Source: a virus. Taken from it: a stretch of DNA of 5,051 nt. The notes below the pieces were generated by a model. That model ran no database searches, was not told the origin of the DNA, and saw only the letters and a list, made by a program, of their open reading frames with translations. This document shows, piece by piece, positions 1 through 5,051 of this stretch (positions within the stretch are counted from its first letter, which is position 1; every line of letters begins with the position of its first letter). The stretch lies in the IMG/VR virus record IMGVR_UViG_3300038758_000031, one strand, 5' to 3'. The position numbers and the translations under genes are program-made.

Positions 1-99
1 TAGTTTTGCTAGTTCTTCATCGTTAAAGCTTAGTGTTACGAATTGTCCTCTTTTATCGTGTCTTATTTCTTCTTGTAGTCTTACTTGCCACTGTCTTTT
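1..99. repeat. Terminal redundancy, copy 1. Identical to 4953..5051, marking a circular genome of 4952 nt.
   Basis: Base-by-base comparison shows 1..99 equals 4953..5051 with no mismatch. The minus-strand reading frame of the Rep gene runs through the junction without a stop. Confidence 0.95.
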
Positions 100-243
100 C
101 TTCTGTTTTTTACACTCCATACATTTTCCACATCCTACTGGTACGTATCGTGTTCTCTCATCTTTTATTTTTGGTATTATTCCCTTATTCTTTTTTGTCT
201 TTGTGTATTTTCTGTTTAGTATTATTGTCGGATAAAGGCACAT
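1..243 (-). CDS. VP4: Replication initiation protein (Microviridae VP4, HUH rolling-circle endonuclease), N-terminal 81 codons. Continues at 4952 on the circle; the full gene is join(243..1, 4952..4128), 355 aa.
   Basis: Hand translation of the minus strand gives an ATG at 243..241, preceded by an in-frame TAA at 258..256. It reads MCLYPTIILNRKYTKTKKNKGIIPKIKDERTRYVPVGCGKCMECKKQKKRQWQVRLQEEIRHDKRGQFVTLSFNDEELAKL. This is the typical microvirus Rep N-terminus: MC..P at the start, a GCGKCxxC cysteine cluster, and RCR motif 1 FVTLSF at 25..42. It is in frame with the 4128..5051 segment. Confidence 0.9.
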   Translation of the reverse strand, partial: MCLYPTIILNRKYTKTKKNKGIIPKIKDERTRYVPVGCGKCMECKKQKKRQWQVRLQEEIRHDKRGQFVTLSFNDEELAKL

Positions 244-257
244 TCTTTTTTTGTTTT

Positions 258-291
258 AGGGGCAAATTCACGTTAGTGATCATGCCCCGTT
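258..291 (-). repeat. 34-nt perfect repeat core, copy A (hairpin-forming). Lies in the VP2-Rep intergenic spacer 244..295.
   Basis: aggggcaaattcacgttagtgatcatgccccgtt is identical to 1644..1677. An outer inverted repeat GGGGCA/TGCCCC and an inner one TCAC/GTGA surround a 4-nt apex. The ORF track also shows it as the shared peptide RGKFTLVIMPR in two unrelated plus-strand ORFs. Confidence 0.95.
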
Positions 292-295
292 TAAC

Positions 296-1207
296 TTAAT
301 ATTTCCCTAGTCCTCTAATGACTGTCGGTGCCTTAGCTAGTAGGTCTGCTATTACTTTTTGTGGTAATAATTTTATTAATTTTTCCACTGCCGTTAGTCC
401 TCCCAAAGTCCATATTATTGTTCCTTGTTCTACTCCCGTTTGTTCTGATAGGTATTGAATTGTTTTTGCTATTATACCGTCATTTCTGTTCAGTCCTGTT
501 TCCTTCATCCATTGTAAATCTTTTTCAGATATCTCTGTATTCGCTATTGCTTGTCCTGTTTGTGCATCTTGTAGTCCTTCCGTTACCTTCATTAACTGTC
601 TTTTGCTTGCTTCTGTTAAGCCTTGTTCTGTGTTCAGTTTTGCTTTGCTTATACTTTCTTGTACTTGTTGTACTAGTGCTTTGGCTTGTTGATTATTTAA
701 CTTAGTCTTACTTCCACTTTCTTCTGCTTTATATCCTCCTATCGCTTCTGCTTCTGCGTCGTTTTTGTTTGCCTGGCTTTTCGCTACTTCTATTTGCGCT
801 TTGCTCATTGCTACATTTAATGCGCTTTGTATGTCTATTGGTTGTGGGCTTGGTGCGTTTCCACTTTGTGCACTTCCTCCGCTTTGACTTCCTGTTGTTC
901 CTCCCGCTCCCGCACTTCCGTATATTAAACCAGGATTTAATCCCGCTTCTTTTAACATTTCTACTTGTGCTGGGTAGTTTGTCTTTTTCCACATATCATA
1001 TTGTAAGTCTGCTCCTTGTTGGTTCAGTCTCATTTGGTTTCGGCTTTGTATTCCCATTAGTGTTTCCTGGTTTTCCATTGCTCGTCTTTCTCGTCTGTTT
1101 TGTCCTAACATTCCTATTAGTCCGCTTCCCAGTCCTATTGCTGTTTGTGTCCAATCCATTTGGTTTGTGTTTGTTGGTGTTCCTGTTGTACTATATCCGC
1201 TTGGCAT
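296..1207 (-). CDS. VP2: Minor capsid / DNA pilot protein (Microviridae VP2, H-like), 303 aa.
   Basis: ATG-to-TAA ORF on the coding strand. It has a glycine-zipper-like N-terminal segment AIGLGSGLIGMLG, the motif YPAQVEMLKEAGLNPGLIYG that I recognise from gokushovirus/alpavirus VP2 proteins, a Gly/Ser/Ala low-complexity linker, and a long Q/K/E-rich probably helical region. It sits downstream of VP1, as in related phages. Confidence 0.85.
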   Translation of the reverse strand: MPSGYSTTGTPTNTNQMDWTQTAIGLGSGLIGMLGQNRRERRAMENQETLMGIQSRNQMRLNQQGADLQYDMWKKTNYPAQVEMLKEAGLNPGLIYGSAGAGGTTGSQSGGSAQSGNAPSPQPIDIQSALNVAMSKAQIEVAKSQANKNDAEAEAIGGYKAEESGSKTKLNNQQAKALVQQVQESISKAKLNTEQGLTEASKRQLMKVTEGLQDAQTGQAIANTEISEKDLQWMKETGLNRNDGIIAKTIQYLSEQTGVEQGTIIWTLGGLTAVEKLIKLLPQKVIADLLAKAPTVIRGLGKY

Positions 1208-1226
1208 TTTTTTCGTGCTTTTTTGT

Positions 1227-1267
1227 AAAAAGCGTGTATTTACGTCTTGATATATATAAATACACGC
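1227..1267 (-). terminator. Hairpin with an 11-bp perfect stem followed by T5 on the coding strand. Candidate intrinsic terminator or attenuator, or an mRNA or ssDNA structural element.
   Basis: gcgtgtattta (1232..1242) is the exact reverse complement of taaatacacgc (1257..1267), with a 14-nt loop. On the minus strand the stem is followed directly by TTTTT (1231..1227). It lies in the 74-nt spacer between the 115-aa ORF stop (1282) and the VP2 ATG (1207). Confidence 0.4.
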
Positions 1268-1281
1268 GTACTACTCTGTTA

Positions 1282-1629
1282 TTACTCCGTTTTACCTTGT
1301 ATTGACTTATCTTCGATAATATCTCCCTTATCTTCTGTTTTAAGTTTTACTACTTTTCCTTTTCCTTCTCTTTTAGCTAGTTTGCTTTTACTTACTGTAT
1401 CCATTGCATCACATGCTACCTCGAATCTGTCTGTACGTATGTTATATGCTTCCATAACTCCGTCTTTTCTTTCCGTAAATATTTCACTTGCTCCGTCTGT
1501 TATCGGTTCATTATTATCCAATAATCTTGCCACTTTCTGTTCGATTCTTTCTCCTTCTACTGTTTCAATTCTTGTTAGTTGACTTCTTGTTCCTTGTTTT
1601 GCTTTGTTATATGCTTTTATTTTGCTCAT
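1282..1629 (-). CDS. Hypothetical protein, 115 aa, between VP1 and VP2. Possibly a scaffolding or structural accessory protein; function not established.
   Basis: ATG-to-TAA ORF on the same strand as all other genes, filling the VP1-VP2 gap. The segment EPITDGASEIFTERKDGVMEAYNIRTDRFEVA resembles a motif I recall from uncharacterised proteins of gut microviruses. The C-terminus is Lys-rich. The start is preceded by an A-rich leader and repeat copy B. Confidence 0.7.
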   Translation of the reverse strand: MSKIKAYNKAKQGTRSQLTRIETVEGERIEQKVARLLDNNEPITDGASEIFTERKDGVMEAYNIRTDRFEVACDAMDTVSKSKLAKREGKGKVVKLKTEDKGDIIEDKSIQGKTE

Positions 1630-1643
1630 TATTTTTTATTTTA

Positions 1644-1677
1644 AGGGGCAAATTCACGTTAGTGATCATGCCCCGTT
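1644..1677 (-). repeat. 34-nt perfect repeat core, copy B (hairpin-forming). Lies in the VP1-ORF115 intergenic spacer 1630..1681.
   Basis: Identical to 258..291. It has the same geometry as copy A: 4 nt from the upstream stop codon (1682..1684) and 14 nt from the downstream ATG (1629..1627). Confidence 0.95.
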
Positions 1678-1681
1678 ATTT

Positions 1682-3658
1682 TTATAAATTTGGAATTATT
1701 TTCGCACTCATTTTTCTTCTCGCAGTTATTCTTTTTGAGATTTGCACCCAAAAGTTCTGTGCATCTAATTGCGTTTGCGCAAATATTTGATTGAATTTTG
1801 TTGGGTCTATGTATGTTGTTAAATCTTCTATTTCTCCTGTACTATTATTTTTAGTATATCTTCTGTTTAATGTCATAAACATTTCACTTTCTTCTGCGAA
1901 GTTTCCATACGTTCTGTTCACTGCAGTCATGTAGTTTATCCATGCTGGTTGTTTTCCCGCACTTGAGAAAGTGCTTGTTCCATTACTTGCGTTTTGACTT
2001 GTATCAGTCCAACTCATTTGGTCTGTTATTAAGTCCTGGTATCCTATTCCGTCCAAACTTGGTTTGTGAAAATCTTCCATTGTCTCCAGGTTTACGTCCC
2101 ATTTGTTTCCTTGTGAATAGTCCACTCTTGGCGTTAAGCTCACAATTCCCATTATATATGATGGTTCATCTACTTTAATTACCATTTTTCCTCCTTTGTT
2201 CTTTCCTGTTAGTTTTCCTCGTCCCGCTAGACTTCCCAATGGTTGGTCTGTCGTTTCTGCGTTACTTACTACTTCCTGGAATGCTAACTCTTTTATAAGG
2301 CTTCCATGATATACTGGACTTTCTACGCTTTTACTTCTTTCATGTGTATATACTGCGTCTAACCAGTCATCATAACTTCCTCCACTTATTGCCACTCTGT
2401 TTAACATTTCATAAACTTTCTGTGCTAAGTTTAAACTGTCTATTGTGAAACTATCCCCTGTCGTATCTACTCTTGTTACTTCGTTGATTCCGTTTGTTCC
2501 GTCAATCCATTCTGTTTCAATCCAGTTATTGAATAAATCACTTTGATATGTTTTTAGTCCCAGTCCTTCTTGTGTATATTGGCAAGAATATGTTTTGTTT
2601 TCATTTGTTCCAAAATTTTTCATTGGGAAGCAATATGGCGTTGCTACACTTTCAGTTATTGTGTATACTCCACTTGCGAACGGATACTGTAATATGTTCT
2701 CGCGCATCTTGTCTATGTTTTCTAATGGAAATTCTGCCAATGATATTTGTGCTCCTGTTCCTCCTTCTGTTCCTACTGGATTGTCTGTAACGACCCAGGT
2801 TGTACTGCCACTATCGTCTCTACATTCTGTGCAGTTGAATCTCGATAAGTTTGGTTCCCATACTACACTGTCCCATAATTCTGTTGGATTGTATGTTGTT
2901 CCTCCTACTACTACGTCTATGTCTGTTACATCTGGTTCATTTGTTCCGTCTGGAAAATTTATCCTTAATACTGTGTCATAGTCTGCAGTATATCCCGCTT
3001 GTCCTATTCCTAGAATATCTCCTACTACTTCATTTGTATTTAATAGTATTGCACTATCCATGTCTGTCTCTCCACTACTGTCTGTGTGTATCGCGAAGCC
3101 TCTTTCTTCTTGTTTGTTTGCATAATAGTTTTTGTATATGTCCCAGTATGCTAAGTATGGTACTGCATTGAAGTATCTTTTTGCTGGGTTTGTAGAACCT
3201 GTTATTTTTCCCAGTCCGCTAATTCCTAAGTATTTGAATATACATGAACTATTAATCTGTTCGTTGTCTTCGAATGTCTGTACATAATCCGCATGGTTGT
3301 TTGTTAGTACTTTCACTCTTGGTAGAAATACTTCGCCCATTTTCATTCCTATTCCTAGTTTGTTCATGTGCAATCCCGCATTGTATAATCTAATCGGTAT
3401 TTGAAATACATCTAATTGCACTTTATAGCTTCCGAACAAAGGTCCTATCGTTGGTAATGTCATTACATTACAGTCTAGATCTATGTCCCAACTGTCACCA
3501 GGTAGTGCTAATTCGCTCATAAATGGTACTAGTGTTCCACTACTCATTGAACTTCTCCATGTACTACTCAAGTCATGTGTACTTCTGCTAAATGTTTTTA
3601 AATTTACATTTTCTTTGTTTCCGCTTCCTAGTCGGTTTCCTCCTATTGCTACTTTCAT
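1682..3658 (-). CDS. VP1: Major capsid protein (Microviridae VP1, F-like), 658 aa.
   Basis: Longest ORF in the window. The N-terminal region RSTHDLSSTWRSSMSSGTLVPFMSELALPGDSWDIDLDCNVMTLPTIGPLFGSYKVQLDVFQIPIRLYN and the later YWDIYKNYYANKQEE match conserved blocks of Alpavirinae/Gokushovirinae VP1 as I remember them. The large size (over 600 aa) is more Alpavirinae-like. Its ATG overlaps the stop of the upstream ORF (ATGA at 3658..3655). Confidence 0.93.
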   Translation of the reverse strand: MKVAIGGNRLGSGNKENVNLKTFSRSTHDLSSTWRSSMSSGTLVPFMSELALPGDSWDIDLDCNVMTLPTIGPLFGSYKVQLDVFQIPIRLYNAGLHMNKLGIGMKMGEVFLPRVKVLTNNHADYVQTFEDNEQINSSCIFKYLGISGLGKITGSTNPAKRYFNAVPYLAYWDIYKNYYANKQEERGFAIHTDSSGETDMDSAILLNTNEVVGDILGIGQAGYTADYDTVLRINFPDGTNEPDVTDIDVVVGGTTYNPTELWDSVVWEPNLSRFNCTECRDDSGSTTWVVTDNPVGTEGGTGAQISLAEFPLENIDKMRENILQYPFASGVYTITESVATPYCFPMKNFGTNENKTYSCQYTQEGLGLKTYQSDLFNNWIETEWIDGTNGINEVTRVDTTGDSFTIDSLNLAQKVYEMLNRVAISGGSYDDWLDAVYTHERSKSVESPVYHGSLIKELAFQEVVSNAETTDQPLGSLAGRGKLTGKNKGGKMVIKVDEPSYIMGIVSLTPRVDYSQGNKWDVNLETMEDFHKPSLDGIGYQDLITDQMSWTDTSQNASNGTSTFSSAGKQPAWINYMTAVNRTYGNFAEESEMFMTLNRRYTKNNSTGEIEDLTTYIDPTKFNQIFAQTQLDAQNFWVQISKRITARRKMSAKIIPNL

Positions 3659-4082: not shown

Positions 4083-4127
4083 AATTTTTTTTTTTAAATA
4101 TACATAAAAATTGGTAAACAGTTTGTT

Positions 4128-5051
4128 TCACCTTTTTTTGCCCCAGTTTTTTAACTTAGCGAAGCGTTCCATTTTTTTTAAATTTCTTCTTTCGTTCTCA
4201 TATTTTATCTTATTCCAGTTCTTTTTGTTGTCCTGGTACCCTAGTATTTTACTTTTAATTTGTGCTTCTTTTAGTCTTTTATAATATACTTCTTCTGTTT
4301 TACTTATATCTATTTTTATCCCATTTACCCATCTTTCTCCTTTGTCTAGTTTTTGAATCCATAGTTTTTCTCGTTCTTCTTCTGTGTATATCTTATTTCG
4401 GTAATATATTGGTAAATTTAGTTTGATTCCTTGTCGTGTTTTATATGTCTCGTTTGTTTTCTCTCCTTTATATTTGTTGTTATTACTATCTCTCCTTTTC
4501 ATGTAGTTATTTCCAATTCCTGGACTGCATAAGGTTATGCTATTGTAGTTTGGGTGTTGCTTGTCTGTTTTACTTACATATTTAACTATGTAATTTATTG
4601 TTTTTTCGTTTGTGTATTCTCCAATCCATACTTTTCCATACTTCCATATTTTTTCTATTTCTTCCGTTGTTTTATCTGTAAATAGTATTCCATGTACGTG
4701 TATTCTTTCTGTCTTTTTTTGTCCTAGTTCTGTCACTAACCAGTGTTTAACACTCTTTTTATTTTCCTTTCTCCATCTTTCCAGGAATCTTCTTACCGCC
4801 TTTTTTACTACTGCGTTGTCTAGTTCGTATCCTTGTAGTTTATTTTTCGTTTTTATTTTTTCCTTATTATAGTAGTTTCTTTGTTTTCCGTTCTTTAGTG
4901 TTATTGTTTTCCTTATCCCTGTTATTATTTCTTGTTCGTCATAGTCTGCCTCTAGTTTTGCTAGTTCTTCATCGTTAAAGCTTAGTGTTACGAATTGTCC
5001 TCTTTTATCGTGTCTTATTTCTTCTTGTAGTCTTACTTGCCACTGTCTTTT
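4128..5051 (-). CDS. VP4: Replication initiation protein VP4, codons 49-355 plus the stop. The frame stays open to the window end and continues at 99..243 through the circular junction.
   Basis: The ORF track reports only 4128..4736, starting at a GTG. Hand translation shows no stop between 4737 and 5051. HUH motif 2 HVHGILF is at 4680..4700, and motif 3 YIVKYVSK, with the catalytic Tyr pair, is at 4569..4592. WLVTELG precedes motif 2, as in other microvirus Reps. The stop is TGA at 4130..4128. Confidence 0.9.
   Translation of the reverse strand, partial: KRQWQVRLQEEIRHDKRGQFVTLSFNDEELAKLEADYDEQEIITGIRKTITLKNGKQRNYYNKEKIKTKNKLQGYELDNAVVKKAVRRFLERWRKENKKSVKHWLVTELGQKKTERIHVHGILFTDKTTEEIEKIWKYGKVWIGEYTNEKTINYIVKYVSKTDKQHPNYNSITLCSPGIGNNYMKRRDSNNNKYKGEKTNETYKTRQGIKLNLPIYYRNKIYTEEEREKLWIQKLDKGERWVNGIKIDISKTEEVYYKRLKEAQIKSKILGYQDNKKNWNKIKYENERRNLKKMERFAKLKNWGKKR
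4953..5051. repeat. Terminal redundancy, copy 2. Identical to 1..99.
   Basis: Exact 99-nt match to the window start. Confidence 0.95.

What the first reader, a model, noticed from the sequence alone, without database searches (positions are those of the whole stretch)
244..295. Duplicated 52-nt intergenic cassette with a 34-nt perfect core in identical register to flanking genes
Two of the four intergenic gaps, 244..295 and 1630..1681, are both exactly 52 nt. Each has the layout: stop codon, 4 nt, identical 34-nt core (258..291 = 1644..1677), 14 nt of A-rich leader (10 of 14 identical), ATG. The 4 nt next to the stop codons share no position, so identity is sharply bounded to the core. A 34-nt perfect repeat is costly in a genome this compact, which argues for a functional element kept by selection or gene conversion. 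Both copies follow the virion structural genes (VP2 and VP1) and precede Rep and the 115-aa ORF. One structure could therefore set 3-prime ends or stability for capsid messages and also control initiation of the next gene. I do not recognise this element from described microvirus biology.
Basis: seen in the sequence. Interest (0 to 1): 0.75.

Follow-up and report, generated by a model that had tools for sequence, protein, structure and literature searches.

The report
Twin stem-loops behind microvirus capsid genes
A small circular phage genome carries two identical 34-base stem-loops, one right after its capsid gene and one right after its pilot-protein gene; they are real and strongly conserved, but they are this lineage's version of gene-end hairpins found across the phage family and in phiX174, not a new kind of element.

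Summary
The window is a circular 4952-nt microvirus genome with all genes on the minus strand. The gaps VP2→Rep (244-295) and VP1→115-aa ORF (1630-1681) are both 52 nt. They share an exact 34-nt core (258-291 = 1644-1677) that folds into GGGGCA/TGA/TCAC/TAAC/GTGA/ATT/TGCCCC.

It is not an assembly artefact: seven independent assemblies show both copies. It is under strong constraint. There are no changes in 2×30 nt against a relative whose third codon positions differ by 22-25%. In a 78%-identical relative both copies carry the same single change, which indicates concerted evolution.

Relatives put it in context. Most of this probably Flavobacteriaceae-infecting family has two G-run/C-run hairpins. 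One lies after VP1 or the next ORF. The other lies at the VP2/Rep boundary, usually written into the first 60 nt of Rep with rare GGG/CCC codons. Only this lineage fills both sites with one sequence. A near-identical hairpin, with one compensatory pair change, sits at a third junction in distant marine relatives.

Most likely function (confidence about 0.5): an RNA hairpin marking or stabilising the 3' ends of capsid messages and damping read-through, as with phiX174 TF/TH. It lacks a U-tract, so canonical termination is unproven. The main rival is priming of complementary-strand DNA synthesis. I rate it a new variant of a known kind.

The parts
1644..1677 (-). Core copy A (34 nt), 4 nt after the VP1 stop. 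Sense strand reads AAC + 30-nt hairpin (1674..1645: GGGGCA TGA TCAC TAAC GTGA ATT TGCCCC) + T.
   Evidence: Exact repeat bounds; fold -16.5 kcal/mol, z -5.3; covariance-model score 71.9 bits.
258..291 (-). Core copy B (34 nt), 4 nt after the VP2 stop and 14 nt before the Rep ATG. The hairpin occupies 288..259.
   Evidence: Identical to copy A; fold -16.5 kcal/mol, z -5.1; 65.6 bits. It occupies the position where most relatives carry a GC hairpin inside the 5' end of Rep.
1630..1643 (-). A-rich, Shine-Dalgarno-less leader of the 115-aa ORF (TAAAATAAAAAATA, A at -3).
   Evidence: Read from the sequence. Similarity to the other leader is no more than composition predicts. A at -3 without an SD sequence fits Bacteroidetes-type translation initiation (PMC6847099).
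244..257 (-). A-rich, Shine-Dalgarno-less leader of Rep (AAAACAAAAAAAGA, A at -3).
1678..1681 (-). 4-nt spacer between the VP1 stop codon and the core (AAAT); not shared with the other copy.
   Evidence: It varies among close relatives.
292..295 (-). 4-nt spacer between the VP2 stop codon and the core (GTTA).
   Evidence: It reads GTTT in L121 and L122.
1682..3658 (-). VP1 major capsid gene; its stop codon lies 7 nt upstream of hairpin A.
   Evidence: Pfam Phage_F 5e-11; PHROG major head protein 7e-48.
296..1207 (-). VP2 DNA pilot protein gene; its stop codon lies 7 nt upstream of hairpin B.
   Evidence: PHROG pilot-protein families, E-values 5e-7 to 8.5e-5.
1282..1629 (-). 115-aa ORF downstream of hairpin A; a real gene.
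   Evidence: Homologues found in nearly every relative whose contig covers that position, 44-72% identity, always between VP1 and VP2.
1..243 (-). 5' part of Rep (continues at 4952..4128 across the circle junction), downstream of hairpin B.
   Evidence: 355-aa ORF across the junction; Pfam REP_ORF2-G2P 6e-13; PHROG replication initiation protein 1e-34.

Best explanation
The core is a GC-clamped stem-loop that acts on the sense-strand transcript. It sits 7 nt behind the stop codons of the two structural genes VP1 and VP2. There it most likely marks or protects the 3' ends of those messages, through pausing, weak termination or a block to 3' exonucleases. That would lower the amount of intact message reaching the next gene (the 115-aa ORF and Rep). 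The unstructured A-rich leader behind it lets the downstream gene start on its own in a host without Shine-Dalgarno pairing.

This is the lineage's version of a two-hairpin layout common to the whole virus family. One hairpin lies behind VP1 or the next ORF, and one lies at the VP2/Rep boundary. What is special here is that one hairpin sequence was copied into both places and the copies are kept identical by gene conversion or recombination.

Shown: the structure, its position, purifying selection, concerted change of the two copies, and the family-wide layout. Inferred: action at the RNA level and the effect on expression.
For: (1) Stable fold, far better than shuffled sequence.

(2) Among five sequence variants, all four single changes fall in unpaired positions. 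The only stem change is a compensatory A-U to U-A. Paired cells are 100% versus 31-53% for slid controls.

(3) Strong constraint: 0 changes in 60 nt against 22-25% third-codon-position divergence, and at most 2 changes in 57 nt against 35% (P = 8e-9).

(4) In 40 complete relatives, GC hairpins cluster at gene ends: 26 after O115, 12 after VP1, 6 after VP2 and 26 inside Rep (21 genomes carry one at +50..+60). Only 6 lie inside VP1, VP2 or O115 and 7 after Rep. They start 4-14 nt (mostly 5-8) after the stop codon in most cases.

(5) Hairpins at the O115 site have U-rich tails: 4.0 T in the next 8 nt against 1.75 expected. The window-type hairpin itself has such a tail (CUUAUUUAAU) where it occurs at that site in marine relatives.

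(6) The Rep-embedded hairpin is maintained at nucleotide level. GGG makes up 82% of Gly codons there versus 9% elsewhere; CCC makes up 62% of Pro codons versus 3% elsewhere.

(7) Precedent: phiX174 TJ, TF, TG and TH are leaky terminators behind structural genes. TH sits just before gene A and cuts transcription to about 9% of its peak.

(8) Where relatives lack the hairpins, VP1/O115 are 2-12 nt apart and VP2/Rep overlap. The insert therefore uncouples the downstream gene.
Against: There are no transcript data.

On the sense strand the two window copies are followed by UUAAAAUA and UAAAACAA (3 of 8 and 1 of 8 U). The defining U-tract of an intrinsic terminator is therefore absent. Hairpins after VP1 in relatives also show no U enrichment (2.07 of 8). 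The simple terminator scan does not call the element.

mRNA and the packaged viral DNA strand have the same sense, so no sequence test here separates an RNA role from a single-stranded-DNA role.

The conservation of the unpaired bases (TGA, TAAC, AWT) across distant lineages is more than a plain exonuclease barrier needs. It hints at a sequence-specific partner.
Confidence: 0.5

Rival explanations
1. The hairpin acts in the packaged single-stranded DNA as an entry or start signal for complementary-strand synthesis. It would be an SSB-free duplex recognised by host primase, PriA or RNA polymerase, like the phiX174 n' site or the G4 origin. Two copies would give two priming sites.
For: It folds as DNA at -8.3/-8.4 kcal/mol, z -3.8/-4.3. 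All 40 complete relatives have at least one GC hairpin. Position is flexible and a hairpin is even embedded in Rep coding sequence, which suits a purely structural DNA signal. No U-tract is needed. The conserved unpaired bases could be a primase start motif. The phiX174 primosome hairpin also lies in an intergenic region ahead of gene G, and the same idea has been raised for uncultured microviruses (PMC9865509).
Against: A priming signal could sit anywhere in non-coding DNA. Yet the hairpins sit 4-14 nt behind the stop codons of structural genes and are scarce in the long Rep-O66 spacer. U-rich tails at the O115 site have no meaning for DNA priming. Hairpin sequences are swapped freely between close relatives, which is unlike a specific recognition site.
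Confidence: 0.22
2. The 34-mer is a portable palindromic module that spreads by recombination or template switching during rolling-circle replication, within a genome and between co-infecting microviruses. It persists mainly as a recombination joint or selfish passenger, in the manner of PeSL cassettes, REP elements or MITEs.
For: It forms a discrete sequence family: at least 47.6 bits, against 20.5 bits or less for generic hairpins. That family is found in two distant clades at three different junctions. At one and the same site, close relatives carry unrelated hairpins between homologous flanks. The copies change in concert. Mosaic genomes exist in the clade (L121).
Against: Purifying selection on every base argues for a function for the virus. 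There are only two copies per genome. No copy was found in about 186,000 representative bacterial or archaeal genomes or in GenBank phages. The one mapped recombination breakpoint (L121) lies in the middle of VP2, not at a hairpin. No transposase-like partner is present.
Confidence: 0.12
3. The hairpin plus leader is mainly a translation device. A stable stem ending 15-16 nt before the ATG would keep the A-rich leader free of pairing with upstream coding RNA, or act as a ribosome standby site. It would set the initiation rate of O115 and Rep independently of VP1 and VP2.
For: Both copies end 15-16 nt from the ATG, and several relatives show 16-19 nt. In Flavobacterium, initiation is tuned by mRNA structure and by A at -3 (PMC6847099). 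The hairpin replaces the tight coupling seen in relatives.
Against: The same hairpin type occurs 83-190 nt upstream of the next start at the O115 site, and inside Rep at +57. There it cannot serve initiation. The leaders themselves are not homologous beyond what composition predicts.
Confidence: 0.1
4. The hairpin is the Rep nicking origin for viral-strand rolling-circle replication.
For: HUH-type Rep proteins often nick in or beside hairpins (my own knowledge). One family hairpin lies in or next to the Rep gene, as the phiX174 origin lies in gene A (my own knowledge).
Against: Two identical origins 1386 nt apart would release subgenomic circles, yet the twin arrangement is stable across the clade. 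Loop sequences vary freely among relatives, unlike nick sites. The only universally conserved non-coding block is elsewhere, at 1208-1281.
Confidence: 0.04

Closest known systems
phiX174 leaky intrinsic terminators TJ, TF, TG, TH (intergenic J-F, F-G, G-H, H-A)
   Same: Both are hairpins in the short gaps behind structural genes of a microvirus. One lies behind the major capsid gene (TF, like copy A). One lies behind the pilot gene directly before the replication gene (TH, like copy B). In phiX174 the result is stepwise lowering of downstream transcript levels.
   Different: There is no sequence similarity and no Rfam match. The window copies lack a U-tract. The two copies are identical in sequence, which the phiX174 terminators are not (my own knowledge). 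The host is probably a Flavobacteriaceae member, not E. coli. The function here is untested.
phiX174 n' (PriA) primosome hairpin and G4-type complementary-strand origins
   Same: Both are stable hairpins in the viral strand in an intergenic gap next to the capsid gene. The same interpretation has been offered for conserved hairpins in uncultured microviruses (PMC9865509).
   Different: The element here is much smaller (30 nt), duplicated, tied to stop codons, and replaceable by unrelated hairpins in close relatives. Recognition by a primosome could not be tested.
PeSL composite promoter-terminator cassettes of T4-like phages
   Same: Both are short conserved stem-loop cassettes repeated in intergenic regions of one phage genome and shared between related phages. 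PeSLs are linked to recombination (PMC2839356, PMC4122927).
   Different: No promoter consensus is found in or beside the core. There are only two copies. No recombination breakpoint was mapped to it.
Intercistronic mRNA-stabilising hairpins (REP elements in operons such as malEFG; my own knowledge)
   Same: Both are imperfect GC-rich palindromes of about 35 nt behind the upstream, more highly expressed cistron. Neither needs a U-tract. REP elements give differential expression within one transcript.
   Different: REP elements are host-genome repeats present in hundreds of copies and mobilised by RAYT transposases. This element was not found in bacterial genomes.

Membership tests
Canonical intrinsic (Rho-independent) terminator | GC-rich RNA hairpin shortly downstream of a stop codon | tested here: met
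   6+4 bp hairpin, -16.5 kcal/mol, 7 nt after the VP1 and VP2 stops.
Canonical intrinsic (Rho-independent) terminator | U-rich tract of 7-9 nt directly after the stem on the transcribed strand (definition as in the abstract of PMC3993855) | tested here: not met
   Sense-strand tails are UUAAAAUA and UAAAACAA. The pattern scan does not call the element. The antisense tails are more U-rich (GUUAUUUU, GUUUAACU), but that strand is 46% T overall.
Canonical intrinsic (Rho-independent) terminator | Measured release of transcripts at the site | not testable with these tools
   No RNA data available.
phiX174-type post-cistron leaky terminators | Hairpins in the gaps behind structural genes, including the gap before the replication gene | tested here: met
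   Copies lie behind VP1 (F homologue) and VP2 (pilot), the latter before Rep. phiX174 layout.
phiX174-type post-cistron leaky terminators | Sequence or covariance-model homology to the phiX174 elements | not tested
   No direct comparison with the phiX174 sequences was made. Rfam gives no match to any family at E <= 10.
Complementary-strand origin (n' site / G4 oric type) | Stable hairpin in the packaged strand | tested here: met
   DNA fold -8.3/-8.4 kcal/mol, z -3.8/-4.3. That the sense strand is the packaged strand is assumed from known Microviridae.
Complementary-strand origin (n' site / G4 oric type) | Specific recognition by PriA, primase or RNA polymerase and primer synthesis | not testable with these tools
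   Needs biochemistry.
Complementary-strand origin (n' site / G4 oric type) | Conserved sequence and site among related phages | tested here: not met
   Hairpin sequence and junction differ among relatives. The nearest outgroups L004, L083 and L084 lack both intergenic hairpins.
PeSL-like promoter-terminator cassette | Repeated intergenic stem-loop shared among related phages | tested here: met
   Two copies per genome; the same family is present in a distant clade.
PeSL-like promoter-terminator cassette | Promoter joined to the stem-loop | tested here: not met
   No sigma-70-type site near the cores. No TTTG-N17-23-TAnnTTTG anywhere, and all six TAnnTTTG matches are on the antisense strand.
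REP / MITE-like mobile palindrome | Many copies in cellular genomes | tested here: not met
   The genome-contig scan found only unrelated perfect hairpins. GenBank phages gave none.
Structured RNA family in Rfam 15 | Match to a curated covariance model | tested here: not met
   0 matches at E <= 10 on both strands.

The most novel reading that the evidence does not exclude
The 30-nt hairpin, with its conserved unpaired bases (TGA / TAAM / AWT, including a GATC), may be a sequence-specific, portable recognition module for a host or viral factor. It would move between gene junctions and between distantly related Flavobacteriaceae microviruses and be homogenised within a genome by gene conversion. 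That would make it a small mobile regulatory element of ssDNA phages, perhaps mobilised through the rolling-circle (HUH Rep) machinery. On this reading, the family-wide pair of hairpins, one written into the Rep reading frame with rare codons, would be a previously undescribed core feature of microvirus genome organisation.
Probability: 0.15. Interest if true: 0.7.

Novelty: new variant of a known kind. Interest (0 to 1): 0.45.

Why it matters
In a 5-kb genome with almost no spare DNA, every non-coding base here is frozen while synonymous sites drift. The element is therefore a clean handle on how uncultured, probably Bacteroidota-infecting microviruses set the ratio of capsid to replication gene expression, or how they prime their second strand.

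The comparison also shows a family-wide rule: two GC hairpins, one of them encoded inside Rep with GGG/CCC codons. It also gives a case of concerted evolution and lateral sharing of a 30-nt element in ssDNA phages. Both can be tested directly with synthetic genomes or reporters in Flavobacterium.

It does not change the general picture set by phiX174.

Tried and rejected
- Rfam at E <= 10: no match.
- Sigma-70 promoter and simple terminator scans: nothing at the cores.
- Bacteroidetes promoter consensus: no match on the sense strand.
- Inner-motif scan KGATCACTRAMGTGAAWT in IMG/VR: only the known members, plus an unrelated conserved coding sequence and a few chance hits.
- Structure-pattern scans of metagenomes and representative genomes: apart from the microvirus hits, only generic perfect 13-bp hairpins, so no host source.
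- GenBank phages: chance hits only.
- General concerted evolution of the two hairpins in other relatives: own-genome similarity is only weakly above cross-genome similarity (mean rank 0.32). Only the window stands out, at 0.79 versus 0.15 or less. Rejected as a family rule.
- Cognate viral protein: Rep, VP2 and O76 of the marine hairpin carrier L052 are no closer to the window than those of its hairpin-lacking sister L017.
- Stop-codon read-through or frameshift stimulator: rejected. A second in-frame TAA follows the VP1 stop after one codon, and Rep is in another frame than VP2 (read from the sequence).
- Rep nick origin: rejected, because two identical origins would release subgenomic circles and the loops vary among relatives.
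- Assembly artefact: rejected, because seven assemblies show both copies.

Full report
1. What is there

The window is a complete circular microvirus genome of 4952 nt; bases 1-99 repeat at 4953-5051. All genes lie on the minus strand, in this order: Rep (243..1 joined to 4952..4128, 355 aa), O66, O76, VP1 (3658..1682), a 115-aa ORF (O115, 1629..1282) and VP2 (1207..296). VP1 matches the Phage_F capsid family, VP2 matches pilot-protein families, and Rep matches REP_ORF2-G2P and a replication-initiator PHROG.

The gaps VP2→Rep (244-295) and VP1→O115 (1630-1681) are both 52 nt. They share an exact 34-nt core, 258-291 = 1644-1677, whose identity stops abruptly on both sides. On the sense strand each gap reads: stop codon, 4 unrelated nt, AAC, GGGGCA-TGA-TCAC-TAAC-GTGA-ATT-TGCCCC, T, 14 A-rich nt, ATG.

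The stem-loop folds at -16.5 kcal/mol as RNA (z about -5; no shuffle folds as well). As DNA it folds at -8.3 kcal/mol.

The leaders match at 10 of 14 positions, but composition alone predicts 9.4. The duplicated unit is therefore the 34-mer, not the whole gap.

2. It is real and constrained

- Seven independent assemblies carry both copies.
- L122-type genomes differ from the window at 22-25% of third codon positions in VP1, O115 and Rep. Yet both hairpins are unchanged (0 of 60 nt, P about 1.5e-7). The five differences in these two gaps all lie outside the stem-loop.
- In sample SRR18489175 (VP1 78% aa identity, third positions 65% identical), contig L082 stops inside the hairpin after VP1. 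The 1406-nt contig L120 (O115 plus VP2) begins and ends inside it. The end points are those expected if a 31-mer assembly graph collapses a 34-nt repeat; that reading is my inference.
- In that relative both copies carry the same single change, ATT to AAT in the internal loop. The duplication therefore predates this split, and the copies evolve in concert.
- The next outgroups, L004 (69%), L083 (68%) and L084 (66%), have neither intergenic hairpin.

3. The same hairpin elsewhere

A structure-pattern scan of metagenomes found near-identical hairpins (25-28 of 30 nt) in marine microviruses whose VP1 is only about 57% identical: L086, L087, L094, and L052 (the same contig as L119). There the hairpin sits at a third junction, right after the O115 stop.

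L052 has GGGGCT...AGCCCC in place of GGGGCA...TGCCCC, a compensatory A-U to U-A change. All four other changes among the five variants fall in unpaired positions. Every cell of the 10 pairs is paired, against 31-53% for slid controls. With only five variants, the shuffle control is not decisive (59 of 500).

A covariance model separates this family (47.6-71.9 bits) from all other hairpins in the relatives (20.5 bits or less).

No copy was found in representative bacterial and archaeal genomes, in GenBank phages or in Rfam.

4. Family context

Gene order is conserved in about 80 relatives.

- In roughly two thirds of them, VP1 and O115 are 2-12 nt apart and VP2 and Rep overlap.
- About a third have a 41-88-nt VP1→O115 gap containing a G-run/loop/C-run hairpin of unrelated sequence.
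- Most others have such a hairpin directly after O115, where close relatives carry different hairpins between homologous flanks.

A genome-wide scan of 40 complete relatives placed GC hairpins as follows: 26 after O115, 12 after VP1, 6 after VP2, 7 after Rep, 6 within VP1, VP2 or O115, and 26 inside Rep. In 21 genomes the Rep hairpin lies at +50 to +60 nt from the Rep start (mostly +57). That embedded hairpin encodes N-G-G-x-x-P-P. It uses GGG for 82% of Gly codons (9% elsewhere) and CCC for 62% of Pro codons (3% elsewhere). It is therefore selected as nucleic acid, not only as protein.

The family norm is thus two hairpins: one behind VP1/O115 and one at the VP2/Rep boundary. The window follows this plan. 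It is unusual in filling both places with one sequence. Within-genome similarity of the two hairpins is 0.79 here, against 0.07-0.42 in the other genomes tested.

5. Host

A relative (VP1 61%) is integrated in a 36-kb contig. Its neighbouring MscS gene is 73-80% identical to named Flavobacteriaceae proteins (Algibacter, Flavivirga, Jejuia and others). The A-rich leaders without a Shine-Dalgarno sequence and with A at -3 fit Bacteroidetes-type initiation (PMC6847099). Assigning this host group to the window lineage itself is an inference.

6. How it most likely works

The tight link to the stop codons of structural genes points to a role in gene expression on the transcript. So do the near-absence of such hairpins from other coding DNA and their low number in the Rep-O66 spacer, and the U-rich tails at the O115 site (4.0 T in 8 nt against 1.75 expected).

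The closest precedent is phiX174. Its leaky terminators TJ, TF, TG and TH sit behind structural genes, and TH, just before gene A, lowers transcription to about 9% of its peak.

I therefore favour a post-cistron RNA hairpin that defines or protects the 3' ends of VP1 and VP2 messages and damps expression of O115 and Rep. The A-rich leader would allow independent initiation of the downstream gene. Confidence is about 0.5.

The weak point is the missing U-tract: the sense-strand tails are UUAAAAUA and UAAAACAA. Canonical termination is therefore not established, and an exonuclease barrier or pause site is as likely as a terminator.

7. Rivals

- Complementary-strand priming hairpin in the viral ssDNA, as at the phiX174 n' site (confidence about 0.22). 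This has been proposed for other uncultured microviruses (PMC9865509). It cannot be excluded, because mRNA and viral strand share the same sense.
- Portable recombination module (0.12).
- Translation device (0.10).
- Rep nick origin (0.04). Twin origins would shed subgenomic circles, and the loops vary among relatives.

8. Verdict

The finding is real, non-random and under selection. Its interpretation as a gene-end RNA element is plausible but unproven. Its kind is known in microvirus biology.

The new points are the identical twin copies under concerted evolution, the same discrete hairpin family at three junctions in two distant clades, and the family-wide hairpin pair including one written into Rep.

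Rating: new variant of a known kind, interest about 0.45.

Noticed in passing
window 1208-1281 (minus strand): The O115→VP2 gap holds the only non-coding block conserved in all relatives: GGTACGC(A/G)T.TGTTCTTATATATCAAG, then a small CGCTTT-loop-AAAGCGCGAAA hairpin just before VP2. In the window it forms a 12-bp hairpin (1225-1242 / 1257-1274). It is 100% identical to L122 despite 22-25% third-codon-position divergence. It is a candidate replication origin or main promoter.
   Followed up: partly
relatives L004, L017, L019, L029, L032, L034, L036, L039, L042, L043, L045, L050 and others; Rep +53..+58 nt: A GC hairpin (for example GGGGGGAACATCCCCCC) is embedded in the Rep reading frame, encoding N-G-G-x-x-P-P. 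GGG is 82% of Gly codons there versus 9% elsewhere, and CCC is 62% of Pro codons versus 3%. This is a nucleic-acid element overlapping a gene. The window lacks it and has the intergenic copy instead.
   Followed up: partly
window 1-99 and 4953-5051: A 99-nt terminal redundancy shows the window is a circular 4952-nt genome. Rep runs across the junction.
   Followed up: yes
window 278, 1664, 3478: GATC occurs only 3 times against 12.6 expected from composition. Two of the three sites, and the only two TGATCA palindromes, lie in the hairpin copies. The GATC is kept in all five hairpin variants.
   Followed up: no
window 4083-4127: The Rep→O66 gap is A/T-rich and unstructured (-0.9 kcal/mol) but 100% identical to L122, so it too is constrained. 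In the prophage relative L126 the integration junction lies in the corresponding region between Rep and O66.
   Followed up: no
L126:4380-4408 and 10167-10195: A microvirus relative (VP1 61%) is integrated in a Flavobacteriaceae-like 36-kb contig. It is flanked by 29-nt direct repeats (ATTTTACATAATATAAATTATAGTACAAA, 90% identical) 5787 nt apart, which look like attachment or dif-type sites.
   Followed up: partly
L023 and L063, O115→VP2 gap: An insertion of about 100 nt sits inside the loop of the O115-site hairpin (GGGGGAT...GTCCCCC), so the hairpin arms are kept around foreign sequence.
   Followed up: no
L010, L015, L027, L028, L031, L040, L054, L065, L078, VP1→O115 gap: In a marine subgroup the hairpin after VP1 starts 26-34 nt after the stop, following a run of TAG/TGA-rich repeats. 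It is followed by a conserved TGTATAAT (TGTACAAT in L031 and L040), which resembles an extended -10 promoter element.
   Followed up: no
L121 compared with window 296-1207: L121 is 100% identical to the window from O115 to the middle of VP2 (99.7% over the 3' part of VP1) and then diverges (VP2 82% aa overall). This indicates recent recombination within the clade.
   Followed up: partly
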